Shown here: piece by piece, positions 1-13,800 of the stretch
Layout of the letters: each line of letters opens with the position of its first letter
How positions within the stretch are numbered: the first letter of the stretch is position 1
From: Escherichia coli
GTDB lineage: Bacteria > Pseudomonadota > Gammaproteobacteria > Enterobacterales > Enterobacteriaceae
Assembly: GCF_044324785.1 (NCBI RefSeq)
Contig: NZ_CP172127.1
Reading direction: 5' to 3' (one strand)
Length of the DNA stretch: 64,000 nt
Notes under the pieces: generated by a model
The model's input: only the letters and a program-made list of their open reading frames with translations
What the model was told of the DNA's origin: nothing
Database searches by the model: none
Position numbers and translations under genes: made by a program

Positions 1-320
1 CGGATGCGCCAACCGGCTCCGGCTGGTGGCACTGGGTCGTTGTTAACTTACCCGCTGATACCCGCGTATTACCGCAAGGGTTTGGCTCTGGTCTGGTAGC
101 AATGCCAGACGGCGTTTTGCAGACGCGTACCGACTTTGGTAAAGCCGGATACGGTGGCGCAGCGCCGCCGAAAGGCGAAACCCATCGCTACATTTTTACC
201 GTTCACGCGCTGGATGTAGAACGTATTGATGTCGATGAAGGTGCCAGCGGCGCGATGGTCGGGTTTAACGTCCATTTCCACTCTCTGGCAAGCGCCTCGA
301 TTACTGCGATGTTTAGTTAA
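1..320 (+). CDS. ybhB: PEBP/YbhB-family protein, 3' portion (5' end lies upstream of window)
   Basis: Open frame running from window edge to stop at 320; C-terminal peptide matches remembered E. coli YbhB; synteny with ybhC. Confidence 0.75.
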   Translation, partial: DAPTGSGWWHWVVVNLPADTRVLPQGFGSGLVAMPDGVLQTRTDFGKAGYGGAAPPKGETHRYIFTVHALDVERIDVDEGASGAMVGFNVHFHSLASASITAMFS

Positions 321-471
321 TCACTCTGCCAGATGGCGCTATGCCATCTGGTATCACTTAAAGGTATTAAAAACAACTTTTTGTCTTTTTACCTTCCCGT
401 TTCGCTCAAGTTAGTATAAAAAAGCAGGCTTCAACGGATTCATTTTTCTATTTCATAGCCCGGAGCAACCT

Positions 472-1755
472 GTGAACACATTTTCAGTTTCCCGTCTGGC
501 GCTGGCATTGGCTTTTGGCGTGACGCTGACCGCCTGTAGCTCAACACCGCCCGATCAACGTCCTTCTGATCAAACCGCGCCTGGTACCTCTTCTCGCCCG
601 ATTCTGTCGGCAAAAGAAGCGCAGAATTTCGATGCTCAACACTATTTTGCATCCCTGACACCAGGTGCGGCAGCGTGGAATCCTTCCCCGATTACCCTGC
701 CTGCACAACCTGACTTTGTTGTCGGCCCGGCGGGTACTCAAGGTGTAACGCATACCACGATTCAGGCGGCGGTAGATGCGGCAATTATCAAGCGTACCAA
801 CAAGCGCCAGTATATTGCCGTGATGCCTGGTGAGTATCAGGGAACGGTATATGTCCCTGCCGCTCCGGGTGGAATTACTCTGTACGGTACAGGTGAAAAA
901 CCGATTGATGTGAAGATTGGGCTTTCCCTTGATGGGGGCATGAGCCCTGCCGACTGGCGTCATGACGTCAACCCGCGCGGCAAATATATGCCAGGTAAAC
1001 CAGCGTGGTATATGTACGATAGCTGCCAGAGCAAACGCAGCGACAGTATCGGTGTTCTCTGCTCTGCGGTCTTCTGGTCACAAAACAATGGCCTGCAACT
1101 GCAAAACCTGACCATCGAAAACACGCTGGGCGATAGCGTAGATGCGGGTAACCATCCGGCGGTGGCACTGCGTACTGATGGTGACCAGGTACAGATTAAC
1201 AACGTTAACATTCTCGGTCGTCAGAATACCTTCTTTGTCACCAACAGTGGTGTGCAAAACCGTCTGGAAACCAACCGTCAGCCGCGTACTCTGGTGACCA
1301 ACAGTTACATTGAAGGGGATGTGGATATCGTTTCTGGTCGCGGCGCAGTGGTGTTCGATAATACCGAATTCCGCGTGGTGAACTCACGTACTCAGCAAGA
1401 AGCGTATGTGTTTGCACCGGCAACACTGTCTAACATCTATTACGGTTTCCTCGCCGTAAACAGCCGTTTCAATGCTTCCGGTGATAGCGTGGCGCAACTG
1501 GGCCGCTCGCTGGATGTTGATGCTAATACCAACGGTCAGGTGGTGATCCGTGATAGCGCCATCAACGAAGGTTTTAATACGGCTAAACCGTGGGCCGATG
1601 CGGTGATTTCCAATCGTCCGTTTGCGGGTAATACTGGCAACGTTGATGATAACGACGAAGTACAGCGTAATCTGAATGACACTAACTACAACCGCATGTG
1701 GGAATACAATAACCGCGGCGTGGGTAGCAAAGTGGTTGCAGAGGCGAAGAAGTAA
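472..1755 (+). CDS. ybhC: Pectinesterase-family outer-membrane lipoprotein (putative acyl-CoA thioesterase)
   Basis: 427 aa ORF with GTG start; signal peptide ending in lipobox LTAC; synteny. Confidence 0.85.
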   Translation: MNTFSVSRLALALAFGVTLTACSSTPPDQRPSDQTAPGTSSRPILSAKEAQNFDAQHYFASLTPGAAAWNPSPITLPAQPDFVVGPAGTQGVTHTTIQAAVDAAIIKRTNKRQYIAVMPGEYQGTVYVPAAPGGITLYGTGEKPIDVKIGLSLDGGMSPADWRHDVNPRGKYMPGKPAWYMYDSCQSKRSDSIGVLCSAVFWSQNNGLQLQNLTIENTLGDSVDAGNHPAVALRTDGDQVQINNVNILGRQNTFFVTNSGVQNRLETNRQPRTLVTNSYIEGDVDIVSGRGAVVFDNTEFRVVNSRTQQEAYVFAPATLSNIYYGFLAVNSRFNASGDSVAQLGRSLDVDANTNGQVVIRDSAINEGFNTAKPWADAVISNRPFAGNTGNVDDNDEVQRNLNDTNYNRMWEYNNRGVGSKVVAEAKK

Positions 1756-1762
1756 AAAAGAA

Positions 1763-1827
1763 AACCCGATAGTCTGAACCATCGGGTTAATGAAACAGGG
1801 CGCTATATTTCATAGCGCCTTTTTTTA
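1763..1827. terminator. Tail-to-tail intrinsic terminators between ybhC (+) and ybhJ (-)
   Basis: Hairpin aacccgat..atcgggtt flanked by A-run on + strand (U-run for minus transcript), then hairpin agggcgctata..tagcgcct followed by T7. Confidence 0.6.
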
Positions 1828-4110
1828 CATCTGACGGTTTTTATTGAAGTTAATCAAACTACCCGCCTTGATAATCTCGCGTTCTTCAGCAGTCAGACTT
1901 TCCATATAGAGCGTAATCTCTGTTACCGGCGCATCTTCATGGATCACATAACCTTTAAACGTCGTACCCGGATTATCCAGCGCCGCTTTAATGCCAGGGA
2001 TGTAAATGTAATCCCCCACTTCAAACGCTGGTGCTTCCGCCATTTGCAGCGGTAACATCCCCCAGTTGATGACGTTAGAACGGTAGCGTTTAGTCGCGTA
2101 TTCCTCGGCAATATTCGCCAGACCGCCAATCACACGCTGGCAGCTCGCCGCCTGCTCACGCGCAGAACCATCGCCTGGTTTCACCGCATAGACCATGCTG
2201 CCAATTTCAGTTTGCAGCGGATCAATATGCTCCTGACCAGCAATCTGCTTAATGCGCGCAAACACCTCTGTCAGCTCACTGACATTCCCCGCCAGACGCT
2301 GATTTTCCAGCTCAGCAGTCGCTTTACTTCTGCCAACATAACCTGGATCGCGGCGTGACAGGGTAAACTCCGCCAGACCAATCGGATTTGAACGATAAGA
2401 AGATGTTTCACCGGAAGGAATCAGTTCGTCGGTGGTGGTCACTTCGTCGAGGATCTTCGAGCACACTTTGAGGACGATATTGTCAGTCAGCGCACCCAAT
2501 TCCGGCCAGTCTTTAATGTTCGGTCCGTAAATCAGCGGTTGCTGGGTCGCCCCTTTCACAAAGCCCTGATAAACACGGTTTTTATACGGCGTTACATCGA
2601 AGGCGTACTCCGGCACGTTGTCCCAGCAATCCAGCTCGCTGGCAGAGGTTAAATAGCCACCGTTTGCCGCAGTCGCAGCGATGGAACGAGCGTCCATCAA
2701 CGCCACTGCTGACATCTGCCCATTGGCTGGCTTAGAGCCTTCGCGGTTCGGGAAGTTACGCGTGGTGTGGCGAATACTCAAACCGTTGTTGATTGGCGTA
2801 TCGCCCGCGCCGAAGCATGGGCCGCAGAACGCGGTTCTGATGATTGCGCCTGCGCCAATCAAATCTGCTACCACGCCTTTTTTGGCTAAATCCATAAACA
2901 CCGGCTGTGATGACGGGTAAACCGCCAGCGAGAAGGTGTCATTGCCACAGGATTGACCGCGCAGTGCATTCGCCGCCGCGATGACGTTTTCGTAGTTACC
3001 GCCAGAACAGCCCGCGATAATCCCCTGCTGCACTTTCAGGCGACCATTTTCCACTTTATCCAGCAGCGAGAGTTTGGCTTTACCGTGCGCCACGCGTTCG
3101 GACTCAATTTCAATCTCACGCAGAATGTCGGTCAGGTTCTGGTTCAGCGTGTCGATTTCATACACGTTGCTCGGGTGGAACGGCAGCGCAATCATTGGTT
3201 TGATGGCGCTTAAATCAACGCTGATGCAGCCATCGTAGTACGCCATCGGTTGAGGGTTAAGCTGGCAGTAATCCTGGCCGCGACCGTGCAGCGCCAGCCA
3301 GTTATGGACTTCTTCATCGGTTTGCCAGATAGAACTTAAACAGGTCGTTTCAGTGGTCATAACGTCAACGCTGTTACGGAAATCGGTAGAGAGCGCAGCA
3401 ACACCGGGACCTACGAATTCCATCACTTTGTTTTTGACGTAGCCGTTTTTGAACACGGCACCGATGATAGCCAGCGCCACATCCTGTGGCCCCACATACG
3501 GCGCAGGTTTTCCGGTCAGATGCACCGCAACAACTCCCGGATAGTCGATATCCCAGGTGTCATTAAGCAGCTGTTTTACCAACTCACCGCCACCCTCACC
3601 GACTGCCATTGTCCCTAATGCACCGTAACGGGTGTGGCTGTCTGACCCGAGGATCATTTTGCCCCCGCCTGCCATCATCTCACGCATATATTGATGGATG
3701 ACCGCAATATGCGGAGGCACAAAAATACCGCCATAACGCTGAGCTGCCGATAAACCAAAAACATGGTCATCACCGTTAATGGTGCCGCCGACGGCGCAGA
3801 GTGAGTTATGGCAGTTGGTCAGCACATACGGCAGCGGGAAACGTTCCATACCGGACGCTTTAGCGGTCTGTACAATACCAACAAAGGTAATATCGTGAGA
3901 GGCTAATGAATCAAACTTAATTTTAAGTTTATCCATATTTCCGGACGTATTATGAGAAGAGAGAATAGACCAGGCAATAGTGCCTTTTTTTGCTTCTTCT
4001 TTTTTAATTTCGCCGGTGAAATGTTCTTCGGCAATTATTTCGTTATTACTGGCGAGAAACACGCCTTTTTCAGATAACTTGATCATCAAATGCTCCAGAT
4101 ATCTGCGCAC
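1825..4110 (-). CDS. ybhJ: Aconitase-family hydratase
   Basis: 761 aa ORF; aconitase-like sequence; position in ybhHIJ cluster. Confidence 0.8.
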
Positions 4111-4152
4111 CGTGAAGTGCGCAGAAAGATAATAAATGGATATACTCTAAAT

Positions 4153-4268
4153 AATTCGAGTTGCAGGAAGGCGACAAGCGAGTGAATCCCCAGGAGCTTA
4201 CATAAGTAAGTGACTGGGGTGAGCGAACGCAGACGCAGCACATGCAACTTGAAGTATGACGAGTATAT
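4153..4268. repeat. ERIC/IRU enterobacterial repetitive intergenic consensus element
   Basis: Contains gtgaatccccaggagcttacat and aagtaagtgactggggtgagcg, the two halves of the ERIC inverted repeat (the classical ERIC primer sites). Confidence 0.8.
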
Positions 4269-5702
4269 TTACAGCATGTTCCAGCCGATCAGCATATTCC
4301 ACCACCACACTCCGAGGGTGATATGCACCAGGAAGGTTAATATCGTCAGTACCGCACCGACCAACCACCAGGATTTAATATCGTTGTAACCCACGCCAAA
4401 GATGACCGGACCTGCCGCGCCGCCATAGTGAGTAACCATGCCGCCATAGGAGTTGGAGAACAACAGTGCCAGCGCGGTTAACATTAACGGTGCGCCGGAG
4501 ACGTTCGCCAGCATGGCAAATACCGGTAACATGGCAACGATATAGGCACTACCGGAAGCGAAGAAATAACGCACGATAATGCTGAGGAAAATAATAACGA
4601 AGAAAGCAACGTTACCGTGACCATCAAATGCCAGGTTATTTTTAAAGACTTCAGCTAACCATTCGAAGAATTTCACTTTCGATAATAAGGAGCTTAAGCC
4701 GATAATACCGCCGTACCAGATTAAGGTATTCCAGCCGCCTTTATTTTTAACCACGTCTTCCCAGGTAACGATACCCAGCAGCAGCATAGTCGCCATAACA
4801 ACGATTGCCACGGTGGATTCATCAACCCCCAGTGACTTACTGAAAATCCAGCCCAGTAGCGCCAGCACAAAGACACCGAGCAGCATTTTTTCGCGGATTT
4901 TCATCGGTCCCAGTTCGGCAAGGCCCGCTTTGGCGATGGTTTTGTTATCCACCTTCTTAATTTCTGGCGGATACATGGTGTAAATCACCAGCGGGGTGAC
5001 CAGCAGCATAATGATACCCGGCAATCCAGCGGCCAGCGCCCATCCACCCCAGCTAATTTGCAGGTGCAGAATGTCGTTGATCATTTTCAGCGCCAGAATG
5101 TTCCCCGCCATTGCGGTAAAGAACATATAGCTGGTGGTTTTGGTGACCATGTAAATGGACATCATCAGGTAATGTCCGACACGACGCGGACTTTTTTCCG
5201 GTTCGGACCCCAAAGCCACCGCCACACTGTTGATGATCGGTAACACAATGCCGCCCGCACGCGCGGTGTTAGACGGTGTTGCCGGAGCCAGTACCAGATC
5301 GAGGAATACCGTAACGTAACCCAGACCCAGCGTGGTGTTACCGATTTTACCAATCAGCAGATAGGCTATACGTTTGCCTAAGCCGGTGGTCACAAATGCG
5401 GCGCTTAAGGTGAACGCCGAGAACACCAGCCAGGTGGTACCTGAAGAGTAACCGCTTAATACGGCGGTGGTCTTAAACGCACCGTCGGATAAGTTACCGA
5501 CCACCACCATTGAGGCAGCAACGGCAATTAACAGTACGACAGGTTCCGGGAAAGGCTTGATAACCAGCCCCACAATGGCCGCCAGGTAAATACCAAAAAG
5601 CACCCACGCCAGTTCGCTTAATCCTGCCGGAGCTGGCATAAAGCCAATAATACATGGGATCGCTAATATCAGAATTAGCTTCCATAACGATTTTTTATTC
5701 AT
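4269..5702 (-). CDS. ybhI: DASS-family anion/tricarboxylate transporter
   Basis: 477 aa highly hydrophobic ORF; synteny. Confidence 0.8.
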   Translation of the reverse strand: MNKKSLWKLILILAIPCIIGFMPAPAGLSELAWVLFGIYLAAIVGLVIKPFPEPVVLLIAVAASMVVVGNLSDGAFKTTAVLSGYSSGTTWLVFSAFTLSAAFVTTGLGKRIAYLLIGKIGNTTLGLGYVTVFLDLVLAPATPSNTARAGGIVLPIINSVAVALGSEPEKSPRRVGHYLMMSIYMVTKTTSYMFFTAMAGNILALKMINDILHLQISWGGWALAAGLPGIIMLLVTPLVIYTMYPPEIKKVDNKTIAKAGLAELGPMKIREKMLLGVFVLALLGWIFSKSLGVDESTVAIVVMATMLLLGIVTWEDVVKNKGGWNTLIWYGGIIGLSSLLSKVKFFEWLAEVFKNNLAFDGHGNVAFFVIIFLSIIVRYFFASGSAYIVAMLPVFAMLANVSGAPLMLTALALLFSNSYGGMVTHYGGAAGPVIFGVGYNDIKSWWLVGAVLTILTFLVHITLGVWWWNMLIGWNML

Positions 5703-5777
5703 TTAAAATCCTGTTCTTTCTGTATGACTCATACAGAAGTCCTTTATTGATTGTCCTTATCCTGACAACGAATTTTT

Positions 5778-6830
5778 TCAGGGAAGAAAAACTTCACCGG
5801 AAAATATTTTTCTGGTTGTCCGAATAACAGATGCGCGTAACGTCGTGGCATCCTGACCTTCATTACTTAAATGAACGTCGAGCGCACCACTGGGGTGTTC
5901 AATATTGATATTGCCGTATCCTACAGAAGGGACGATTTGTCGGGTGACGGTGCCTTCCAATGCACAACTACTGGAAATGGCAATAGCTCCGGTTATCGCC
6001 AGAGCGCGATGGCAAGAATGCGGCATAAAATAACGCACATTAATTGCTCCGCCTTTCTGCGCTGGAGAAATAAGCACAGGTTTAGGGATAACCATATTAC
6101 TGACATCGCCTAAGCCCATTGCTTTACCCGCTTGTAGACGGATAGATTCAATGCGGGCTAATAATGCTTTGTCAGCATCCAGCTCCGTCGGTAATTCATA
6201 GCCTGTTTTTCCCAGATATTCAGCAGGAATAATAACAACTGGCATCGCCATATCGATACAGGTCACCGGGACATCGTCAAAATAATCAATCTGATTATCA
6301 GTCGGGAAGACTTTTCCGGTTTTGGTTCCGGCGGCATTCAGGAAAGTGAGCGCAACCGGTGCGGCAGTACCCGGTACGCCGTCAATTCTGGCGCTACCCT
6401 CGTACTCGACAACACCATTTGGCGTTTGCACATCAGCTTCGATGAACGTACCCGTATTGACGTTGCGGATACGTACGCGGGTAACTGGCGAAGTCGCTGC
6501 AATCAAACCATTTTCAATGGCGAATGCCCCAACGCCAGACAGCATATTGCCGCAGTTAGGCGTGGTATCGACACGTTGCTCATGGACGATAACTTGAGCA
6601 AACAGATAATCGACATCTGCACGCGGATCGCTGGAGCGGCTAATAATGGCGACTTTACTGGTCAGCGGATTACCGCCGCCAATACCGTCAATTTCCAGAT
6701 CGTTACCGGAACCCATAATTGCCATCAATATTTTATCGCGCTGCGTTTGATCTTCGGGTAAATGTTCCGCTAACAAGAACGCGCCCCTCGAGGTTCCACC
6801 TCGCATCATCACGCAGGGTATTTTTTTCAT
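5778..6830 (-). CDS. ybhH: PrpF/AcnD-accessory-like isomerase
   Basis: 350 aa ORF; synteny with ybhI/ybhJ and divergent LysR gene. Confidence 0.8.
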   Translation of the reverse strand: MKKIPCVMMRGGTSRGAFLLAEHLPEDQTQRDKILMAIMGSGNDLEIDGIGGGNPLTSKVAIISRSSDPRADVDYLFAQVIVHEQRVDTTPNCGNMLSGVGAFAIENGLIAATSPVTRVRIRNVNTGTFIEADVQTPNGVVEYEGSARIDGVPGTAAPVALTFLNAAGTKTGKVFPTDNQIDYFDDVPVTCIDMAMPVVIIPAEYLGKTGYELPTELDADKALLARIESIRLQAGKAMGLGDVSNMVIPKPVLISPAQKGGAINVRYFMPHSCHRALAITGAIAISSSCALEGTVTRQIVPSVGYGNINIEHPSGALDVHLSNEGQDATTLRASVIRTTRKIFSGEVFLP

Positions 6831-7013
6831 AATAATGCCCTCAATTTAAAAACATAACTTATTGCGATATGGTTACATTAAGGGCAAAGCATCTCTAATG
6901 ACTTTAGCTCAACGATTAATAACATTTTTTCATTAATTTAAGTTGGCTAAATGCAGTTAAAATTTTTAACGGCCAGCCACCCAAAATCGAGGCTTCCATT
7001 TTCCGGAGTAATA

Positions 7014-7967
7014 ATGAAGCATGAATTATCAAGTATGAAGGCATTTGTCATACTGGCAGAGTCCAGTTCATTTAACAATGCCGCTAAATTACTCAATATT
7101 ACGCAACCTGCATTAACGCGAAGAATAAAAAAGATGGAGGAAGATTTACATATCCAACTATTTGAGCGTACAACTCGCAAGGTTACGTTAACAAAAGCAG
7201 GAAAAAGGTTGCTCCCGGAGGCGCGGGAATTAATAAAAAAATTCGATGAAACACTTTTTAATATTCGTGATATGAATGCTTATCATCGTGGTATGGTGAC
7301 GTTAGCGTGTATTCCGACCGCGGTATTTTATTTTTTACCATTGGCAATCGGTAAATTTAATGAGCTGTATCCCAATATTAAAGTGCGGATTCTGGAACAA
7401 GGCACGAATAATTGCATGGAATCGGTGCTGTGTAACGAATCAGACTTTGGCATAAACATGAACAACGTCACAAATTCATCCATTGATTTTACCCCACTGG
7501 TCAACGAGCCGTTCGTGCTGGCCTGTCGGCGTGACCATCCATTGGCCAAAAAGCAGCTTGTAGAATGGCAGGAGTTAGTGGGTTACAAAATGATTGGCGT
7601 ACGCTCCTCCAGCGGCAACCGACTGTTGATAGAACAACAGCTAGCCGACAAGCCCTGGAAGCTGGACTGGTTTTACGAAGTGCGTCATCTTTCGACGTCA
7701 TTAGGACTGGTGGAGGCGGGACTGGGGATTTCGGCGCTTCCTGGTCTGGCAATGCCCCATGCACCCTATTCTTCGATTATTGGTATCCCGCTGGTGGAAC
7801 CGGTTATACGTCGGACATTGGGGATTATTCGCCGCAAAGATGCCGTGCTTTCTCCGGCAGCTGAACGCTTTTTTGCCTTGCTGATTAATTTGTGGACTGA
7901 CGATAAAGACAATTTGTGGACCAATATCGTCGAACGCCAGAGACATGCGTTACAGGAGATAGGTTAA
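7014..7967 (+). CDS. ybhD: LysR-family transcriptional regulator
   Basis: N-terminal LysR HTH region; start placed at internal MKHELSS (317 aa) rather than ORF-track 6951; divergent from ybhH. Confidence 0.75.
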   Translation: MKHELSSMKAFVILAESSSFNNAAKLLNITQPALTRRIKKMEEDLHIQLFERTTRKVTLTKAGKRLLPEARELIKKFDETLFNIRDMNAYHRGMVTLACIPTAVFYFLPLAIGKFNELYPNIKVRILEQGTNNCMESVLCNESDFGINMNNVTNSSIDFTPLVNEPFVLACRRDHPLAKKQLVEWQELVGYKMIGVRSSSGNRLLIEQQLADKPWKLDWFYEVRHLSTSLGLVEAGLGISALPGLAMPHAPYSSIIGIPLVEPVIRRTLGIIRRKDAVLSPAAERFFALLINLWTDDKDNLWTNIVERQRHALQEIG

Positions 7968-8007
7968 TACACCGGCGCAGGAGAGACTGCGCCGGGTAAA
8001 TCAGCGG

Positions 8008-9039
<1,032 letters not shown>

Positions 9040-9157
9040 CTAAAATTAGTCGCTTTTGGCGGTGAATGCTGAATTAAAACGCAGAATTTTGTCCGATAGT
9101 GGTATCGGTGTACCATTCGCGCAGACGAAAATTCTTAACCTTAATCTGGAATACGCC

Positions 9158-9976
9158 ATGACCACACGCGTGATTGCTCTCGACTTAGACGGCACCTTAT
9201 TGACCCCGAAAAAGACCTTGCTTCCATCATCGATAGAAGCCCTGGCCCGCGCTCGCGAAGCAGGCTATCAATTAATCATCGTCACAGGTCGCCATCACGT
9301 CGCTATTCATCCTTTTTATCAGGCGCTGGCGCTGGATACACCTGCTATTTGCTGTAATGGCACCTATTTGTATGATTATCATGCAAAAACCGTGCTGGAA
9401 GCGGACCCAATGCCCGTTAATAAAGCCCTGCAACTCATTGAGATGCTGAATGAACACCACATTCACGGTCTGATGTATGTCGATGATGCAATGGTCTATG
9501 AGCACCCGACCGGGCATGTCATTCGCACGTCTAACTGGGCGCAAACCCTGCCGCCGGAACAGCGTCCGACTTTCACACAAGTCGCTTCTCTGGCTGAAAC
9601 GGCGCAACAAGTTAACGCCGTATGGAAGTTCGCCCTGACGCACGATGACCTGCCGCAATTGCAGCATTTTGGTAAGCATGTCGAACATGAACTGGGACTG
9701 GAGTGTGAATGGTCCTGGCACGATCAGGTTGATATTGCACGCGGCGGCAACAGCAAAGGTAAACGTTTGACGAAATGGGTTGAGGCGCAAGGCTGGTCGA
9801 TGGAAAACGTCGTGGCGTTCGGCGATAACTTTAATGATATCAGTATGCTGGAAGCCGCTGGTACAGGCGTGGCGATGGGCAACGCCGATGACGCAGTAAA
9901 AGCGCGCGCCAACATTGTGATTGGTGATAACACCACCGACAGCATTGCCCGGTTCATTTATAGCCACCTGATTTAA
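9158..9976 (+). CDS. ybhA: HAD-superfamily phosphatase (pyridoxal phosphate phosphatase)
   Basis: HAD motif IALDLDGTLL at N-terminus; start placed at MTTRV (ATG 9158) inside the longer ORF-track frame. Confidence 0.85.
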   Translation: MTTRVIALDLDGTLLTPKKTLLPSSIEALARAREAGYQLIIVTGRHHVAIHPFYQALALDTPAICCNGTYLYDYHAKTVLEADPMPVNKALQLIEMLNEHHIHGLMYVDDAMVYEHPTGHVIRTSNWAQTLPPEQRPTFTQVASLAETAQQVNAVWKFALTHDDLPQLQHFGKHVEHELGLECEWSWHDQVDIARGGNSKGKRLTKWVEAQGWSMENVVAFGDNFNDISMLEAAGTGVAMGNADDAVKARANIVIGDNTTDSIARFIYSHLI

Positions 9977-11035
9977 TCAGGCGGTTATCGACACACTTTT
10001 AATTTGCGCATACAGCCACAGGCCAGGTTTGATCGCCAGTTCATCCCTGGCCCACGGGCTGATACGCGCCCACAGCGTTTTACCGCCGACTTCCAACTCC
10101 ACTTCCACCTGGCCGTTGTCGTCATAACTATTAACAACTTTTGCCCGCAATACGTTACGAATGCTGGTTTGCTGCGGCGGTTGTAAAACCAGCGAGACAT
10201 CGGAAGCCTGAATGCGGATACGTAGCGCAGCTTGCAGCGGTTCGTCCAGCTTATTGACCCACAAATGCTGATCGCCCAGCGCCAGCGCAGTCATCGCGTA
10301 ATGCGGATGATGCTCAAGTACCGTCACTTTCAGAATGCTACTTTGTTGCTCTTTCGGCAGCCACGGATTCATCACGCTACTGCCCCAGACTTCTTCCAGC
10401 GCGCCAAAGGCTTTCACCTGACCGTTTTCCAGTACCATCACTCTGTCTGCCAGATGGAGGATCTCATCCAGCGAATGGCTGACATACAACATCGGAATGT
10501 TGATTTCCCGTGTCAGCCGTTGCAGATAAGGCAACAGTTCGCGTTTACGCGGAATATCCAGTGACGCCAGCGGTTCATCCAGCAACAGCAATTCCGGTGC
10601 TGTCAGCAAAGCCCGACCAATCGCCACGCGCTGTTTTTCGCCTCCGGAAAGACTGCCCGGTAAACGCTCAAGCAACGGTTCAATGCCTAAAAGCGTCACC
10701 AGCTTATCGAACTGATCGACCATGCTTTTCGCCATGCCGTAGCGCAAATTGCCACGCACTTTATAATGCGGAAACAGCCGCGCATCCTGAAACACATAGC
10801 CTACGCGACGCTTTTCCGGCGTCAGGCAGATACCTTTATCGGCGTCATTTAGTACCCGACCATTGAGGACAATCCGCCCCTTTTGCGGACGTGTCAGCCC
10901 ACTGATGGCGTTAATCAGCGAGGTTTTTCCGGCACCAGAGACACCAAAAATAGCGGTGATGCCATTGGCGGGCAGCGTTTCATTAATAGTCAGGCAATGG
11001 TTGCCCAACGTCTGGGAAAAATTCAGTTCCAGCAT
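9977..11035 (-). CDS. modC: Molybdate ABC transporter ATP-binding protein
   Basis: 352 aa; Walker [13 protein letters not shown] signature LSGGEKQR, C-terminal TOBE domain. Confidence 0.9.
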
Positions 11036-11037
11036 GA

Positions 11038-11727
11038 TTAGCGCCCCGCCCGTTCACGGCTGATTCTGGCCAGCCATTCTGAAATCAACAGGGAGATCAT
11101 CGCCAGCGCAATAGAAATAATACACAGTCTCGCCGCGCCACTTTCCCCGCCGGGAGTCTGGATCAGGGTATACATGGCAGAAGGAATGGTTCGCGTTTCA
11201 CCAGGAATGTTAGAAACAAAGGTTATGGTTGCACCAAACTCACCGAGCGAACGTGCGAATGCCAGTACCGTACCAACAATAATTCCCGGTAAGGTCAGCG
11301 GTAACGTGATAGTAAAGAAAACGCGCCAGCGCCCCGCCCCCAGTGTTCTTGCGGCCTGCTCCAGTTTGATATCAACCCCTTCCAGCGCCAGACGAATCGC
11401 CCGCACCATCAGCGGAAAAGACATGACAGCGGCAGCGAGAACCGCACCGCGCCAGCTAAACGCGAAAGAAAGACCAAACCAGTCATACAGACGTTCACCG
11501 ATAAATCCGCGCCGTCCCATCGAAACTAATAATAAGTAACCGACGACCACGGGCGGTAACACCAGCGGTAGATGCAGTACGCTATCGAGCAGAGCTTTGC
11601 CCGGAAACGTGCAACGTACCAGTAACCAGGCAAAAAAGATCCCAAACGGCAGGCTAAACAGCACAGCCAGGGAAGAAACTTTCAGGCTTAATAAAACTGC
11701 CTGCCATTCTGGATCGGTCAGTATCAT
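11038..11727 (-). CDS. modB: Molybdate ABC transporter permease
   Basis: 229 aa membrane protein; synteny. Confidence 0.9.
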
Positions 11728-12500
11728 TACTTGGTTGTAAATCCGTAACGTTTAAAGATTTCCGCAGCCTGCGGCCCTTTCAAATAATCATAAAATGCTT
11801 TCACTGTCGCATTGTTATGCCCTTCCACAACAGCAACCGGGTATTCCACTTTTTTATGCGAATCTTCCGGGAAGGTGGCGACCACTTTTACCCCTTTGCT
11901 GGCAACTGCGTCAGAACCGTAAACTATGCCCAGCGGCGCTTCATTGCGTTCGACCAACGCCAGCGCGCCACGAACATCTTCCGCCGGAGCCAGTTTCGGG
12001 GAGAGCGTATCCCATGCGCCCAGTTTTTGCAGTGCTTCTTTCGCATAAATGCCAGCAGGGACATGTTCCGGATCACCAACCGCGAGGCGACCGCCATTCA
12101 GCAGCGAAGTCCAGTTGGTTTTGCTGTCGATGGTGAAATCTTTCTGCTCGCTGGCTTTCGGTGCTACAACGACCAGGCTATTGCCGAGCAGTGTCTGGCG
12201 CGAAGCCGTATCGATCGCTTTTTTATCAACCGCATAATCCATCCATTTCTGATCGGCAGAAATAAACAGATCCGCAGGCGCACCCGCTTCAATCTGACGG
12301 GCCAAAGTAGATGACGAAGCGAAAGAAGAAACCACATCCACGCCTTTCTCTTTTTTATACTGCGTAGCAATGTCCTGCATTGCGTTAGTCAGTGATGCGG
12401 CGGCGAACACCGTGATTTTCCCTTCATCTGCCAGTGCATTGCCAGCAACAGCGAAAGTGAGTGCCGCCCCGGTAAACAAGTTCAACCATTTACGAGCCAT
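11727..12500 (-). CDS. modA: Molybdate ABC transporter periplasmic binding protein
   Basis: 257 aa with signal peptide; synteny. Confidence 0.9.
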   Translation of the reverse strand: MARKWLNLFTGAALTFAVAGNALADEGKITVFAAASLTNAMQDIATQYKKEKGVDVVSSFASSSTLARQIEAGAPADLFISADQKWMDYAVDKKAIDTASRQTLLGNSLVVVAPKASEQKDFTIDSKTNWTSLLNGGRLAVGDPEHVPAGIYAKEALQKLGAWDTLSPKLAPAEDVRGALALVERNEAPLGIVYGSDAVASKGVKVVATFPEDSHKKVEYPVAVVEGHNNATVKAFYDYLKGPQAAEIFKRYGFTTK

Positions 12501-12519
12501 TGGTAACCCCTTAATCTAA

Positions 12520-12543
12520 CGTTATGTAGGCGTCAATATAACG
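12520..12543 (-). promoter_or_regulatory. ModE operator at the modA promoter
   Basis: Minus-strand reading CGTTATATTGACGCCTACATAACG, imperfect inverted repeat resembling the remembered ModE site, about 20 bp upstream of modA start. Confidence 0.55.
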
Positions 12544-12666
12544 GCAAGTTCGGAATTTTCCCAGCAGTTATTGCTAACCTTTGTGAGGTAGATAAGAAAA
12601 AATATCGGCAGGAAAAGCAGGAAGTTGAGAAAAAGAAAATGCCCGACTAAGCGGGCATTCAGGGAA

Positions 12667-12834
<168 letters not shown>

Positions 12835-12944
12835 TCATGAGACTATTCTAACCGCTAAGCACAGAAAAGCACTCCCCTTTTGTGCGGTCAGCTTTGCGTG
12901 GCGTTCGTTTTCCGTCACAATAAGACTTTTGCCAGGATATTGTT

Positions 12945-13733
12945 ATGCAGGCCGAAATCCTTCTCACCCTTAAGCTCCAACAAAAATTATTCGCCGACCC
13001 GCGCCGCATTTCGCTACTAAAACACATTGCGCTTTCCGGTTCCATTAGCCAGGGAGCGAAAGATGCCGGTATCAGCTATAAAAGCGCCTGGGATGCCATT
13101 AACGAAATGAATCAGTTAAGTGAGCATATTCTGGTCGAGCGCGCAACAGGCGGTAAAGGTGGCGGCGGCGCAGTACTGACCCGCTATGGTCAGCGACTGA
13201 TTCAGCTCTATGACTTACTGGCGCAAATCCAGCAAAAAGCCTTTGATGTGTTAAGTGACGATGACGCCCTGCCGCTGAACAGCCTGCTGGCCGCGATCTC
13301 ACGTTTTTCACTGCAAACCAGCGCCCGTAACCAATGGTTTGGCACCATCACCGCCCGCGATCATGATGACGTTCAACAGCATGTTGATGTCTTACTGGCT
13401 GACGGAAAAACACGCCTGAAAGTCGCAATTACCGCACAAAGCGGCGCGCGTCTGGGGCTGGATGAAGGCAAAGAAGTGTTGATATTGCTAAAAGCGCCGT
13501 GGGTAGGCATTACTCAGGACGAAGCTGTCGCACAAAACGCCGACAACCAATTACCGGGTATTATTAGTCATATTGAGCGCGGCGCAGAGCAGTGCGAAGT
13601 ATTAATGGCGCTACCCGACGGGCAAACACTGTGCGCCACAGTGCCGGTAAATGAAGCGACTTCTCTTCAGCAAGGACAGAATGTCACGGCCTACTTTAAT
13701 GCCGACAGCGTGATTATCGCCACGCTGTGCTAA
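12945..13733 (+). CDS. modE: Molybdate-responsive transcriptional regulator
   Basis: 262 aa; synteny, divergent from acrZ-modABC. Confidence 0.9.
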   Translation: MQAEILLTLKLQQKLFADPRRISLLKHIALSGSISQGAKDAGISYKSAWDAINEMNQLSEHILVERATGGKGGGGAVLTRYGQRLIQLYDLLAQIQQKAFDVLSDDDALPLNSLLAAISRFSLQTSARNQWFGTITARDHDDVQQHVDVLLADGKTRLKVAITAQSGARLGLDEGKEVLILLKAPWVGITQDEAVAQNADNQLPGIISHIERGAEQCEVLMALPDGQTLCATVPVNEATSLQQGQNVTAYFNADSVIIATLC

Positions 13734-13800
13734 GCGTGTTGACAATTTGTTATGAAACACGTATCCCTGTCAGTAATCGCTGCACAAAATGGGATATAAA

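What the first reader, a model, noticed from the sequence alone, without database searches (positions are those of the whole stretch)
5778..7967. ybhD-ybhHIJ: LysR regulator divergent from an isomerase/transporter/aconitase-family operon
A PrpF-like isomerase, a DASS-type carboxylate transporter and an aconitase-family protein are co-directional and face a LysR gene, the classic layout of an inducible catabolic operon for a tri- or dicarboxylate. As far as I know the substrate is not firmly established. An ERIC element sits between ybhI and ybhJ, which may uncouple expression of ybhJ.
Basis: partly seen in the sequence, partly recalled or inferred. Interest (0 to 1): 0.3.

Follow-up and report, generated by a model that had tools for sequence, protein, structure and literature searches.

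The report
E. coli ybhD–ybhHIJ tricarboxylate operon
This is the known but functionally unassigned E. coli ybhD–ybhHIJ gene cluster. Comparison with other bacteria suggests it takes up the plant acid trans-aconitate and converts it into citric-acid-cycle intermediates, which would make the database name of its isomerase wrong.

Summary
Window 1825-7967 carries ybhJ (aconitase family), ybhI (DASS transporter) and ybhH (PrpF family) on the minus strand, facing the LysR gene ybhD. A 129-bp ERIC repeat lies between ybhI and ybhJ. The stated coordinates cover only ybhH and ybhD.

The layout and the regulator are already published: YbhD binds here and ybhH is derepressed in a ybhD mutant (Sci Rep 2022). 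I found no published substrate.

My evidence points to trans-aconitate:
- YbhH is 59-63% identical to Pseudomonas proteins that were shown to be fully active aconitate isomerases. It is only 45% identical to LigU, the enzyme behind its RefSeq name.
- YbhD is 47-60% identical to the LysR genes divergent from those isomerases.
- In twelve neighbourhoods of this clade the pair sits with carboxylate transporters of six families, and once with none. It never sits with oxalomesaconate-pathway enzymes.
- YbhJ keeps its three Fe-S cysteines and the aconitase catalytic residues.
- An ATTAAT-N11-ATTAAT dyad, unique in the window, recurs at the same position in Dickeya.
- The ERIC is an Escherichia-specific insertion into a spacer that is 26 bp in Citrobacter. 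Its effect on ybhJ expression is untested.

This is an ordinary inducible operon with a sharply testable substrate prediction.

The parts
1825..4086 (-). ybhJ, an aconitase-family [4Fe-4S] hydro-lyase of 753 aa. The predicted role is hydration of cis-aconitate or a close analogue.
   Evidence: RefSeq CDS. Pfam Aconitase 297 bits; NCBIfam PRK11413 1541 bits against a cutoff of 641. Alignment to pig aconitase 5ACN and to family members keeps Cys360/421/424, D149-S150-H151, H93, H131, E246, R443, R448, S641 and R643. An SD sequence GGAG lies 6 nt before the ATG.
4103..4124 (.). GC-rich hairpin CTGCGCAC-N6-GTGCGCAG between the ERIC and the ybhJ ribosome-binding site. Its function is unknown.
   Evidence: Read directly from the sequence. 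No U-run follows it on the transcribed strand.
4140..4268 (.). ERIC (IRU) repeat inserted in the ybhI-ybhJ spacer, abutting the ybhI stop codon.
   Evidence: It is absent from the orthologous 26-bp spacer of Citrobacter and the 85-bp spacer of Edwardsiella.
4269..5702 (-). ybhI, a DASS-family carboxylate transporter of 477 aa. The predicted role is trans-aconitate uptake, possibly by exchange.
   Evidence: Pfam Na_sulph_symp 649 bits; TIGR00785 554 bits. The closest solved structures are the chloroplast dicarboxylate exchangers DiT1 and DiT2 and a bacterial DASS.
5778..6830 (-). ybhH, a PrpF-superfamily isomerase of 350 aa. The predicted role is aconitate isomerase (trans- to cis-aconitate).
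   Evidence: Pfam PrpF 557 bits. The structure is solved as PDB 6OTV, 'putative isomerase YbhH'. The catalytic pair Lys59/Cys93 aligns with the LigU residues mutated in 6P3H and 6P3K. It is 59-63% identical to the Pseudomonas AI-7-1/AI-32-1 orthogroup and 45% to LigU.
6831..7013 (.). Divergent ybhD/ybhH control region of 183 bp.
   Evidence: YbhD ChIP-exo binding and ybhH derepression are reported in PMC9068703.
6915..6937 (.). Candidate YbhD operator, the dyad ATTAAT-N11-ATTAAT (a T-N11-A type LysR box), centred 95 bp upstream of the ybhH ATG.
   Evidence: It is the only match in the 64-kb window even with one mismatch allowed (0.11 expected). The same dyad lies 94 bp upstream of the orthologous isomerase in Dickeya. 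Among the 32 loci fetched at that point (L001-L032) it was found only there and in E. coli. That YbhD binds it is inferred.
7014..7967 (+). ybhD, a LysR-type regulator of 317 aa. It represses ybhH without inducer; the predicted effector is trans- or cis-aconitate.
   Evidence: Pfam HTH_1 plus LysR_substrate. It is 47-60% identical over its full length to the LysR genes divergent from YbhH-clade isomerases in Dickeya, Pseudomonas, Providencia and Rhizobium. RNA-seq and ChIP-exo data are in PMC9068703.

Best explanation
ybhD-ybhHIJ is a LysR-controlled module for taking up trans-aconitate, or a very close unsaturated tricarboxylate, and feeding it into the citric-acid cycle.

1. Repression (shown elsewhere). 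Without inducer YbhD represses ybhH.
2. Operator (inferred). YbhD most likely acts from the ATTAAT-N11-ATTAAT dyad at 6915-6937.
3. Induction (inferred). Trans-aconitate or cis-aconitate binds YbhD and relieves the repression.
4. Uptake (inferred). YbhI, a DASS transporter, imports the acid. It may exchange it for succinate or malate, as the E. coli paralogues CitT and TtdT do.
5. Isomerisation (inferred from close homologues). YbhH uses its Lys59/Cys93 pair for a 1,3-proton shift that converts trans- to cis-aconitate.
6. Hydration (chemistry inferred, rationale speculative). YbhJ, an Fe-S hydro-lyase with a complete aconitase catalytic set, hydrates cis-aconitate to citrate or isocitrate. This would pull an equilibrium that favours the trans isomer, and would bypass the housekeeping aconitases that trans-aconitate inhibits.
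7. ERIC. The repeat between ybhI and ybhJ is a later insertion in the Escherichia lineage. It is transcribed as a long hairpin and its regulatory effect is unknown.
For: (1) Closest characterised relatives.
- PMC11495376 Table S4 gives AI-7-1, AI-16-1, AI-32-1 and AI-41-1, from Pseudomonas isolates that assimilate trans-aconitate, 88-101% of TarA activity in the trans-to-cis direction. The canonical PrpF paralogues from the same strains give 2-4%.
- The published primers encode MQRIPCV...(F/L/Q)RLAG.
- The AI-7-1/AI-16-1 primer pair matches exactly, 1077 bp apart, in six P. putida-group genomes, for example L019 3979-5058.
- YbhH is 59% identical to that protein and 63% to the AI-32-1-type protein P0361. 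It is 45% identical to LigU.
- Of 145 positions invariant across the YbhH/isomerase clade, 38 differ in LigU. These include active-site-proximal motifs: CIDMAMP against LIDNGMP, and RYFMPHxCH against RSFIPHRAH.

(2) Co-inherited regulator. YbhD is 60% identical to the divergent LysR gene in Dickeya, 54% in Providencia, 51-54% in Pseudomonas and 47-50% in Rhizobium, over the full length.

(3) Neighbourhoods. The pair is joined by non-orthologous carboxylate transporters:
- DASS in enterics
- SDF plus CitMHS plus an OprD porin
- OprD plus TctCBA, the tripartite tricarboxylate transporter
- MFS in Dickeya
- ABC in Rhizobium
In most of these loci no further enzyme gene follows the pair (the exceptions are under evidence against), which fits an isomerase product that is already a central metabolite. 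By contrast, authentic LigU on plasmid pCAR3 sits among ligK, amidohydrolases and ligAB dioxygenases.

(4) Citrate genes nearby. The module abuts citrate-fermentation genes in K. aerogenes (citS-type 2HCT transporter and oadGAB) and citrate lyase genes in Dickeya (citCDEF).

(5) YbhJ residues. It keeps all three cluster cysteines and the aconitase catalytic residues. It also keeps an Arg (R565) in the swivel-domain loop; from my recollection of the aconitase sequence, this is where the gamma-carboxylate-binding Arg580 lies.

(6) A precedent. tarR-tarAB of B. velezensis is a divergent LysR gene plus a PrpF-family aconitate isomerase plus an importer, and is induced by trans-aconitate. That paper's Table S6 lists Shigella, E. 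albertii and E. fergusonii as carrying a tarA homologue at about 40% identity.

(7) Chemistry. Trans-aconitate is about 88% of the equilibrium mixture and is a competitive aconitase inhibitor (PMC8050072).

(8) Regulation. ybhH is strongly up in a ybhD deletion, and YbhD has a ChIP-exo site here. ybhD rose 30-fold while ybhH fell 5.7-fold in an ethanol array.
Against: - No enzyme, transport or growth data exist for the E. coli proteins.
- 59% identity does not guarantee the same substrate.
- AI-79, from a Providencia rettgeri isolate that assimilates trans-aconitate, has a YbhH-like C-terminus (GDVYVP) and was inactive, at 0.67% and 0.35% of TarA. However, its construct starts at an internal MRGGTSK, about 8 residues short of the aligned start of its homologues.
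- E. coli and E. tarda YbhH carry L56, N43 and S98 next to the catalytic residues, where the active clade has Q, H and C. L56 is shared with LigU and Mii.
- A dedicated hydratase is not needed for trans-aconitate in Pseudomonas or Dickeya, so the presence of YbhJ is unexplained.
- From memory (Blank, Green and Guest 2002, not held in the library): deleting ybhJ did not reduce the residual aconitase activity of an acnAB mutant. That is compatible with repression by YbhD, but it gives no support.
- The only reported phenotype involves L-malate.
- Some related clusters add a 2-hydroxyacid dehydrogenase or an Iso_dh-family dehydrogenase. This hints at a longer pathway in some lineages.
Confidence: 0.55

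Rival explanations
1. The RefSeq reading. YbhH is a 4-oxalomesaconate (OMA) tautomerase/delta-isomerase like GalD and LigU. The operon would process an OMA-like product of gallate or protocatechuate ring cleavage made by other microbes, with YbhJ replacing the LigJ/GalB hydratase.
For: YbhH scores 514.8 bits on NCBIfam NF033377, above the equivalog cutoff of 440. LigU is the closest solved homologue of known function, at E = 1e-94 and 45% identity, and it shares the Lys/Cys pair. OMA is a 4-oxo analogue of homoaconitate, so hydration by an aconitase-type enzyme is chemically conceivable (my inference).
Against: No dioxygenase, LigJ/GalB-type hydratase or CHA aldolase lies near ybhH in E. coli, nor in any of the eleven other neighbourhoods of the YbhH/isomerase clade. 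Authentic LigU is embedded among them. Closer relatives, at 59-63% identity, are demonstrated aconitate isomerases. 38 of 145 clade-invariant positions differ in LigU. Without an aldolase the product would be a dead end.
Confidence: 0.05
2. Same logic, different acid. The operon handles another unsaturated carboxylate that needs a double-bond shift and then an Fe-S hydration. Candidates are itaconate to citraconate to citramalate, methylitaconate/dimethylmaleate, 2-methyl- or 4-methyl-aconitate, and trans-homoaconitate.
For: PrpF-family isomerases are paired with aconitase-family hydro-lyases in the AcnD/PrpF 2-methylcitrate route (PMC5690661). They are also paired in the Mii/DmdAB nicotinate fermentation (established knowledge); Mii is a solved homologue at E = 3e-67. 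Needing YbhJ is easier to explain if housekeeping aconitases cannot act on the product. YbhJ differs from aconitase at three positions (Q72 to H, D100 to C, N258 to V). A metagenomic cluster joins PrpF, a YbhJ-like gene and an Iso_dh-family gene of unassigned specificity. E. coli YbhH has L56 as Mii and LigU do.
Against: The orthologous LysR-isomerase pairs elsewhere have transporters only, including tricarboxylate-type TctCBA and CitMHS. Tested members of the clade are efficient aconitate isomerases. YbhJ keeps the Arg I expect to bind a third carboxylate. No lyase or CoA-transferase for citramalate or dimethylmalate lies nearby.
Confidence: 0.2
3. Reverse direction. The operon makes and exports trans-aconitate: YbhJ dehydrates citrate to cis-aconitate, YbhH isomerises it to the thermodynamically favoured trans form, and YbhI exports it. 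This would resemble tbrA-tbrB of Bacillus thuringiensis.
For: Aconitate isomerases are reversible and the trans isomer is about 88% at equilibrium. A dedicated citrate dehydratase makes more sense for production than for assimilation. Enterobacterales (Enterobacter, Citrobacter, Providencia) were recently reported as trans-aconitate producers (PMC13188880). The closest relatives of YbhI among solved structures are exchangers.
Against: Orthologous regulator-isomerase pairs sit next to dedicated uptake systems: SBP-dependent TctCBA, ABC importers and OprD porins. The system is repressed by a LysR regulator in the manner of catabolic operons. No evidence was found that E. coli secretes trans-aconitate.
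Confidence: 0.1
4. The ERIC element functionally uncouples ybhJ from ybhHI. This is the reader's sub-hypothesis: the transcribed hairpin would act as a processing, stability or partial termination site, so that ybhJ is expressed at a different level.
For: The 129-nt palindrome folds at -44.4 kcal/mol, z = -5.6. It widens an ancestral 26-bp spacer to 182 bp. It is fixed in 98% of E. coli genomes. A second GC-rich hairpin lies just before the ybhJ SD. From memory (De Gregorio et al. 2005), ERICs in Yersinia change the stability of flanking mRNA in an orientation-dependent way.
Against: The hairpin base is AU-rich with no immediately following U-run, so it is not terminator-like, and no terminator-like site was reported between ybhI and ybhJ (4087-4268). 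No promoter-like site lies between the ERIC and ybhJ. ybhJ keeps a good SD. No expression data across the element were found. Most ERICs are regarded as neutral passengers.
Confidence: 0.25

Closest known systems
tarR-tarAB trans-aconitate assimilation system of Bacillus velezensis FZB42 (PMC11495376)
   Same: A divergent LysR regulator faces an operon that starts with a PrpF-superfamily isomerase and continues with a carboxylate transporter. The paper's Table S6 lists Shigella and Escherichia species other than E. coli as carrying a tarA homologue at about 40% identity.
   Different: TarB is an MFS importer whereas YbhI is DASS. TarR is described as an activator, whereas YbhD behaves as a repressor in RNA-seq. 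tar has no aconitase-family gene. Nothing has been measured for the E. coli proteins.
Pseudomonas AI-7-1 / AI-16-1 / AI-32-1 / AI-41-1 aconitate isomerase loci (enzymes assayed in PMC11495376 Table S4; loci L012, L019, L033, L035)
   Same: These are the closest characterised homologues of YbhH, at 59-63% identity. Their divergent LysR gene is 51-54% identical to YbhD. The catalytic Lys and Cys and most active-site-proximal motifs are identical.
   Different: The transporters are SDF plus CitMHS plus OprD, or OprD plus TctCBA. There is no YbhJ. E. coli YbhH has L56/N43/S98 in place of Q/H/C. The genetics of these Pseudomonas loci are not published; only the enzyme activity is.
ttdR-ttdABT L-tartrate fermentation genes of E. 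coli (from established knowledge; cited as ref. 48)
   Same: The parts list in the same organism matches: a divergent LysR regulator, an oxygen-labile Fe-S hydro-lyase, and a DASS-family transporter (TtdT, a tartrate/succinate antiporter and a paralogue of YbhI).
   Different: TtdAB belongs to the class I fumarase-type family, not the aconitase family. There is no isomerase. The substrate is a C4 dicarboxylate.
AcnD-PrpF (2-methylcitrate cycle) and Mii-DmdAB (nicotinate fermentation)
   Same: A PrpF-family double-bond isomerase works in tandem with an aconitase-family hydro-lyase.
   Different: YbhJ scores far below the AcnD model, at 63 bits against a cutoff of 1420, and is a single 753-aa chain with its own equivalog family. 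YbhH scores 187 bits on the PrpF model against a cutoff of 441. No prp or nicotinate-pathway genes are nearby.
LigU/GalD (4E)-oxalomesaconate delta-isomerase of the protocatechuate 4,5-cleavage and gallate pathways
   Same: Same superfamily and the same Lys/Cys catalytic pair. It is the source of the RefSeq product name. YbhH passes the NCBIfam model.
   Different: Identity is only 45%. LigU is embedded among ligK, amidohydrolase hydratase/hydrolase genes and ligAB, none of which accompany ybhH. 38 clade-invariant residues differ.
ERIC / IRU enterobacterial repetitive intergenic consensus elements
   Same: It is an imperfect palindrome of about 127 bp, located in a transcribed intergenic spacer and present in multiple copies per genome. 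The core CCCCAGGAGCTTACATAAGTAAGTGACTGGGG is present.
   Different: Nothing unusual for an ERIC. Only its position inside this operon is specific to Escherichia.

Membership tests
PrpF superfamily (PF04303) | Full-length match to the family profile. | tested here: met
   556.7 bits against a cutoff of 27, residues 1-350. A solved structure of the K-12 protein exists as PDB 6OTV.
PrpF superfamily (PF04303) | Catalytic Lys/Cys acid-base pair. | tested here: met
   YbhH K59 (in TSKVA) and C93 (in NCGN) align with the LigU residues replaced in PDB 6P3H (K to M) and 6P3K (C to S).
4-oxalomesaconate tautomerase / delta-isomerase (GalD, LigU; NCBIfam NF033377) | Score above the curated equivalog cutoff. 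| tested here: met
   514.8 bits against 440. RefSeq names the Pseudomonas aconitate-isomerase clade '4-oxalomesaconate tautomerase' as well, so this model probably does not discriminate.
4-oxalomesaconate tautomerase / delta-isomerase (GalD, LigU; NCBIfam NF033377) | Genomic association with a ring-cleavage dioxygenase, an OMA/KCH hydratase (LigJ/GalB) and a CHA aldolase (LigK/GalC). | tested here: not met
   None is present in the 17.8 kb annotated around ybhH, nor in eleven other neighbourhoods of the clade. The positive control, LigU on pCAR3, has all of them.
4-oxalomesaconate tautomerase / delta-isomerase (GalD, LigU; NCBIfam NF033377) | Catalyses OMA to KCH. | not testable with these tools
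   This needs an enzyme assay. The LigU structure paper, which might mention YbhH, is not in the library.
PrpF-type aconitate isomerase (EC 5.3.3.7; TarA, TbrA, AI-7-1) | Close sequence relationship to an enzyme with measured activity. | tested here: met
   YbhH is 59% identical to the AI-7-1/AI-16-1 orthologue, identified by exact matches of both primers, and 63% to the AI-32-1-type protein. It is about 40% identical to TarA according to the paper's Table S6.
PrpF-type aconitate isomerase (EC 5.3.3.7; TarA, TbrA, AI-7-1) | A divergent LysR regulator and an adjacent carboxylate transporter, with no other pathway enzyme needed. | tested here: inconclusive
   The LysR gene and the transporter are present. 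The enteric clusters carry an additional enzyme, YbhJ, which the known systems lack.
PrpF-type aconitate isomerase (EC 5.3.3.7; TarA, TbrA, AI-7-1) | Interconverts trans- and cis-aconitate and supports growth on or consumption of trans-aconitate. | not testable with these tools
   No data exist for E. coli. The one YbhH-like enteric-type protein tested, AI-79, was inactive, but its construct starts about 8 residues short of the aligned start of its homologues.
Aconitase family (PF00330/PF00694) | Three Cys ligands of the [4Fe-4S] cluster. | tested here: met
   YbhJ C360, C421 and C424 align with pig aconitase C358, C421 and C424. They are conserved in catalytic family members.
Aconitase family (PF00330/PF00694) | Catalytic and substrate-binding residues: D165-S166-H167, H101, H147, E262, R447, R452, S642, R644. 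| tested here: met
   The YbhJ equivalents are D149-S150-H151, H93, H131, E246, R443, R448, S641 and R643. Q72, D100 and N258 are replaced by H64, C92 and V.
Aconitase family (PF00330/PF00694) | Membership of a functionally defined aconitate hydratase equivalog (AcnA, AcnB, PRK07229, mitochondrial). | tested here: not met
   All are below cutoff, with the best being PRK07229 at 343.5 against 612. YbhJ forms its own equivalog, PRK11413 'hydratase', which has few full-length 50%-identity clusters.
DASS transporters (TIGR00785 / PF00939) | Full-length profile match. | tested here: met
   553.9 bits against 198.6, and 649 bits on Pfam. The substrate and the transport mode (symport or exchange) were not testable.
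LysR-type transcriptional regulators | N-terminal HTH_1 plus a LysR_substrate domain, transcribed divergently from the target, with a T-N11-A dyad in the shared region. | tested here: met
   Domains. Divergent layout. The unique ATTAAT-N11-ATTAAT dyad at 6915-6937 is conserved in position in Dickeya. Binding to this exact site was not tested.
ERIC / IRU repeats | An imperfect palindrome of about 127 bp, intergenic, in many copies per enterobacterial genome. | tested here: met
   129 bp with 26-nt outer arms that are 81% complementary. Median of 5 megablast places per genome in 5425 genomes. The identity of the core sequence with the published consensus rests on my memory.

The most novel reading that the evidence does not exclude
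The enteric version is more than an uptake-plus-isomerase module. On this reading YbhJ is a third, dedicated aconitase-like enzyme of E. coli. One possibility is a hydratase that tolerates trans-aconitate and lets the gut bacterium ferment a plant acid that poisons its normal aconitases. The other is the first step of a citrate to cis-aconitate to trans-aconitate export route that makes an aconitase inhibitor or antifeedant in the gut. Either would give E. coli a previously unrecognised tricarboxylate pathway. It would also mean that thousands of RefSeq '4-oxalomesaconate tautomerase' names are wrong.
Probability: 0.15. Interest if true: 0.6.

Novelty: new variant of a known kind. Interest (0 to 1): 0.4.

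Why it matters
ybhD, ybhH, ybhI and ybhJ are part of the shrinking set of conserved genes without a function in the best-studied bacterium. The region 4500-13500, which holds ybhD, ybhH and most of ybhI, matches in 5391 of 5426 complete E. coli genomes; the ybhI-ybhJ junction is contiguous in 5328.

If the prediction holds, several things follow:
- E. coli and its enteric relatives would gain a defined route for trans-aconitate. This acid is abundant in grasses, maize and sugar cane, and therefore in herbivore guts, and it inhibits aconitase.
- YbhJ would be a new functionally defined branch of the aconitase family.
- YbhI would be a DASS transporter with a known substrate.
- The RefSeq/NCBIfam name '4-oxalomesaconate tautomerase' would need to be restricted to proteins in true lig/gal contexts.

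If the prediction fails, the cluster remains an ordinary LysR-controlled carboxylate operon. The test itself is simple, since one commercial substrate and four single-gene knockouts are enough.

Tried and rejected
- A generic T-N11-A search was uninformative: 3948 matches against about 3940 expected.
- The sigma-70 consensus scan found no promoter-like site in the ybhD-ybhH region or upstream of ybhJ. The TSS positions therefore remain unknown.
- An Rfam scan of 1-14000 found nothing.
- The LigU structure paper from the Raushel laboratory, which I assume (unverified) accompanies the YbhH entry 6OTV, is not in the library. An open 'LigU' word search mostly returned irrelevant papers.
- The supplement of PMC9068703 holds no fold-change for ybhJ, so the ERIC-uncoupling idea could not be tested from published RNA-seq.
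- No RB-TnSeq or fitness paper was found that links trans-aconitate to these genes.
- Papers that mention ybhJ gave only a strain genotype note, a candidate antisense sRNA and a biofilm-screen hit.
- The OMA-tautomerase reading was considered and rejected on context and on closer characterised homologues.
- The PrpF/AcnD 2-methylcitrate reading was rejected because both proteins score far below those equivalog cutoffs, and E. coli uses PrpD (established knowledge).
- Two distant YbhJ homologues, P0148 and P0155, turned out to lack the cluster cysteines and were set aside as non-catalytic.
- Structure prediction and fold searches were not run. YbhH is already solved, and a YbhJ model would not reveal the substrate.
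- The expensive metagenome neighbourhood scan was not run.

Full report
**What is there.**
The window around the finding is the E. coli ybh locus. A 9-kb stretch (4500-13500) matches 5391 of 5426 complete E. coli genomes at 95-99% identity. RefSeq annotation of the best match gives the order ybhC, ybhJ, ybhI, ybhH on one strand, then ybhD, pgl, ybhA, modCBA.

In window coordinates the genes are as follows.

| Gene | Coordinates | Strand |
|---|---|---|
| ybhJ | 1825-4086 | - |
| ybhI | 4269-5702 | - |
| ybhH | 5778-6830 | - |
| ybhD | 7014-7967 | + |

- YbhJ is an aconitase-family protein with its own NCBIfam equivalog, PRK11413 'hydratase'.
- YbhI is a DASS transporter.
- YbhH is a PrpF-superfamily protein.
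- YbhD is a LysR-type regulator.

**The ERIC element.**
- The 182-bp gap between ybhI and ybhJ contains a 129-bp imperfect palindrome at 4140-4268.
- As RNA on the transcribed strand it folds at -44.4 kcal/mol, z = -5.6.
- It occurs at a median of five megablast-detectable places per genome in 5425 of 5426 E. coli genomes.
- The junction with both flanking genes is contiguous in 5328 genomes.
- In Citrobacter, at the same chromosomal site, ybhI and ybhJ are only 26 bp apart. In Edwardsiella the gap is 85 bp. In Klebsiella aerogenes an additional CitMHS transporter gene occupies the position.
- The ERIC is therefore a secondary insertion in the Escherichia lineage into a tightly packed operon.
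- It has no terminator-like features. Its base is AU-rich with no adjacent U-run, and no terminator-like site was reported between ybhI and ybhJ. No promoter-like site follows it, and ybhJ keeps a good Shine-Dalgarno sequence.
- Whether it changes ybhJ expression cannot be decided here.

**What is already published.**
- A 2022 systems study (PMC9068703) describes this layout. It reports a YbhD ChIP-exo site and strong up-regulation of ybhH in a ybhD deletion, and notes Nac control. It proposes only an 'L-malate utilisation related' role, from a growth phenotype on glycerol plus malate.
- An older array data set shows ybhD up 30-fold while ybhH is down 5.7-fold.
- The K-12 YbhH structure is deposited as 6OTV, 'putative isomerase'.
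- A 2023 preprint still says YbhH has no known function.
- No paper in the searchable library assigns a substrate.

**What YbhH most likely does.**
RefSeq calls YbhH a '4-oxalomesaconate tautomerase' because it passes NCBIfam NF033377, at 514.8 bits against a cutoff of 440. The solved enzyme of that function, LigU, is only 45% identical.

Much closer homologues, at 59-64% identity, exist in Pseudomonas, Dickeya, Pantoea, Providencia and Rhizobium. Some of these have been assayed. The trans-aconitate assimilation paper (PMC11495376) expressed 16 TarA homologues from environmental isolates that grow on trans-aconitate.
- AI-7-1, AI-16-1, AI-32-1 and AI-41-1 had 88-101% of TarA's activity in the trans-to-cis direction.
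- The canonical PrpF paralogues from the same strains had 2-4%.
- The published primers encode MQRIPCV at the N-terminus and (F/L/Q)RLAG at the C-terminus.
- The native part of the forward primer occurs in 16 genomes of the P. putida group.
- In six of those genomes the reverse primer also matches exactly, 1077 bp downstream. This defines a 359-aa protein, for example L019 3979-5058.
- YbhH is 59% identical to that protein and 63% to the AI-32-1-type protein P0361.

In a 14-sequence alignment, 145 positions are invariant across the YbhH/isomerase clade and 38 of them differ in LigU. The differing positions include motifs beside the two catalytic residues. The catalytic Lys59 and Cys93 are conserved.

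**The regulator travels with the isomerase; the transporter does not.**
YbhD is identical over its full length to the LysR gene divergent from the isomerase at these levels.

| Organism | Identity to YbhD |
|---|---|
| Dickeya | 60% |
| Providencia (plasmid) | 54% |
| Pseudomonas | 51-54% |
| Rhizobium | 47-50% |

Downstream of the isomerase, each lineage has a different carboxylate uptake system.

| Lineage | Transporter |
|---|---|
| Enterics | DASS |
| P. putida and related groups | SDF + CitMHS + OprD porin |
| Other Pseudomonas | OprD + TctCBA (tripartite tricarboxylate transporter) |
| Dickeya | MFS |
| Rhizobium plasmids | ABC system |
| Providencia plasmid | none |

None of these neighbourhoods contains a ring-cleavage dioxygenase, a LigJ/GalB-type hydratase or a CHA aldolase. 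Authentic LigU on plasmid pCAR3 sits among ligK, amidohydrolase genes and ligAB.

A conserved regulator plus one isomerase plus any available tricarboxylate transporter implies that the isomerase product is already a central metabolite. Trans-aconitate to cis-aconitate fits that pattern, and I could think of no other tricarboxylate that does. Two further contexts agree. The Klebsiella module lies beside citrate-fermentation genes, and the Dickeya module lies beside citrate lyase.

**A candidate operator.**
- The 183-bp ybhD-ybhH region contains ATTAAT-N11-ATTAAT at 6915-6937.
- This is the only occurrence in the 64-kb window even with one mismatch allowed, against 0.11 expected.
- It is centred 95 bp upstream of the ybhH start codon.
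- Dickeya has the same dyad 94 bp upstream of its isomerase gene.
- Among the 32 loci fetched at that point (L001-L032), the pattern occurred only at these orthologous positions.
- This is the expected form and position of a LysR recognition site. Binding of YbhD to it is inferred, not shown.

**YbhJ.**
Alignment with pig mitochondrial aconitase and with family members shows the following.
- The three cluster cysteines are kept: C360, C421 and C424.
- The D-S-H triad is kept: D149, S150 and H151.
- H93, H131, E246, R443, R448, the catalytic serine S641 and R643 are kept.
- An arginine (R565) is kept in the swivel-domain loop [15 protein letters not shown]. It has the same spacing from the TTD motif as Arg580 of aconitase; this rests on my recollection of the aconitase sequence.
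- Q72, D100 and N258 of aconitase are replaced by H64, C92 and V.

YbhJ is thus a competent Fe-S hydro-lyase, probably acting on a tricarboxylate, but it is not a member of any defined aconitase equivalog. The family is small. One metagenomic locus combines a LysR gene, an Iso_dh-family dehydrogenase, a PrpF gene, two YbhJ-type genes and a standard aconitase. That again points to aconitate- or isocitrate-like chemistry.

Why enterics need YbhJ when Pseudomonas does not is unexplained. Two rationales are plausible but speculative. One is pulling an equilibrium that lies 88% towards trans-aconitate. The other is avoiding inhibition of AcnA and AcnB by the substrate. The same gene set could also run in reverse, as a route to make and export trans-aconitate.

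**Weak points.**
- Nothing has been measured for the E. coli proteins.
- The one tested protein with an enteric-type C-terminus, AI-79 from Providencia rettgeri, was inactive. However, its construct begins at an internal MRGGTSK, about 8 residues short of the aligned start of its homologues.
- E. coli and Edwardsiella YbhH differ from the active clade at three positions near the catalytic residues (L56, N43 and S98). L56 is shared with LigU and Mii.
- From memory, deleting ybhJ did not lower the residual aconitase activity of an acnAB mutant (Blank et al. 2002). That paper is not in the library.
- I put 0.55 on trans-aconitate as the physiological substrate. I put about 0.8 on the broader statement that this is an inducible operon for an aconitate-like unsaturated tricarboxylate.

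**Verdict.**
The layout and the regulator are already in the literature, so the finding as written is not new. What this analysis adds:
- a specific, well-supported and easily testable substrate prediction
- a probable mis-annotation of the YbhH clade in RefSeq
- a candidate operator
- evidence that the ERIC is a lineage-specific insertion into an ancestral three-gene operon

It is an ordinary kind of system with an open and now tractable functional question.

Noticed in passing
window 5778-6830; loci L012, L019, L033, L035, L038-L040: NCBIfam NF033377 ('4-oxalomesaconate tautomerase', equivalog) and the RefSeq product name cover the whole YbhH/Pseudomonas aconitate-isomerase clade. None of the clade's neighbourhoods contains oxalomesaconate-pathway genes, so the model looks over-broad.
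   Followed up: yes
L004 7483-8915 (Edwardsiella tarda): ybhI is split into ORFs of 230 and 260 aa, so it looks like a frameshifted pseudogene, while ybhD, ybhH and ybhJ are intact. The cluster is 83-88% identical in protein sequence to E. coli's, in a different family of Enterobacterales. This suggests recent horizontal transfer.
   Followed up: partly
L002 3865-11286 (Klebsiella aerogenes): The module sits at another chromosomal site, between ispH/rihC and the citrate-fermentation genes. A 420-aa CitMHS transporter gene lies between ybhI and ybhJ, where E. coli has the ERIC.
   Followed up: partly
L010 8001-10966; L011 1175-4287: Distant YbhJ homologues (38-39% identical) have lost the Fe-S cysteines and the DSH motif. 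Each is followed by a Macro-domain gene. They are probably non-catalytic derivatives.
   Followed up: no
L009 199-10202 (metagenome contig): One locus holds three aconitase-family genes (two YbhJ-type and one PRK07229 aconitase), an Iso_dh-family dehydrogenase of unassigned specificity, a PrpF-family gene and a LysR gene. It may be a complete alternative tricarboxylate pathway.
   Followed up: partly
window 4103-4124: A perfect 8-bp GC-rich hairpin, CTGCGCAC-N6-GTGCGCAG, lies between the ERIC and the ybhJ Shine-Dalgarno sequence. The mechanical GTG ORF start at 4110 lies inside it.
   Followed up: no
window 5717-5739: A 10-bp-stem hairpin lies in the 75-bp ybhH-ybhI spacer, just upstream of the ybhI ribosome-binding site.
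   Followed up: no
window 5778-6830 (YbhH residues 43, 56, 98, 214, 348): E. coli and E. tarda YbhH have N43, L56 and S98 where Klebsiella, Enterobacter, Dickeya and the Pseudomonas isomerases have H, Q and C. The window's protein also differs from the K-12 crystal sequence at T214A and F348Y.
   Followed up: partly
window 4500-13500: The best identity to any of 5426 complete E. coli genomes over 9 kb is only 99.0%, and most matches are 95-99%. The window therefore comes from a lineage that is poorly represented among complete genomes.
   Followed up: no
L033 13424-14383; L035 13612-14604: In the Pseudomonas clusters with tctCBA, a D-2-hydroxyacid dehydrogenase gene follows the transporter genes. 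Its role next to an aconitate isomerase is unclear.
   Followed up: no
window 1825-4086 (ybhJ): The literature reports a candidate cis-antisense small RNA, ECS012 (about 66-120 nt), opposite the ybhJ coding region (PMC3175480). It also reports a ybhJ L54I polymorphism between MG1655 stocks (PMC13192712).
   Followed up: no
window 6951-7013: The longest ybhD ORF starts at 6951. Orthologue N-termini (MKHELSSMKAF and relatives) and a GGAG 6 nt upstream support the RefSeq start at 7014. The longer ORF would nearly abut the candidate operator, starting 13 bp from it.
   Followed up: yes
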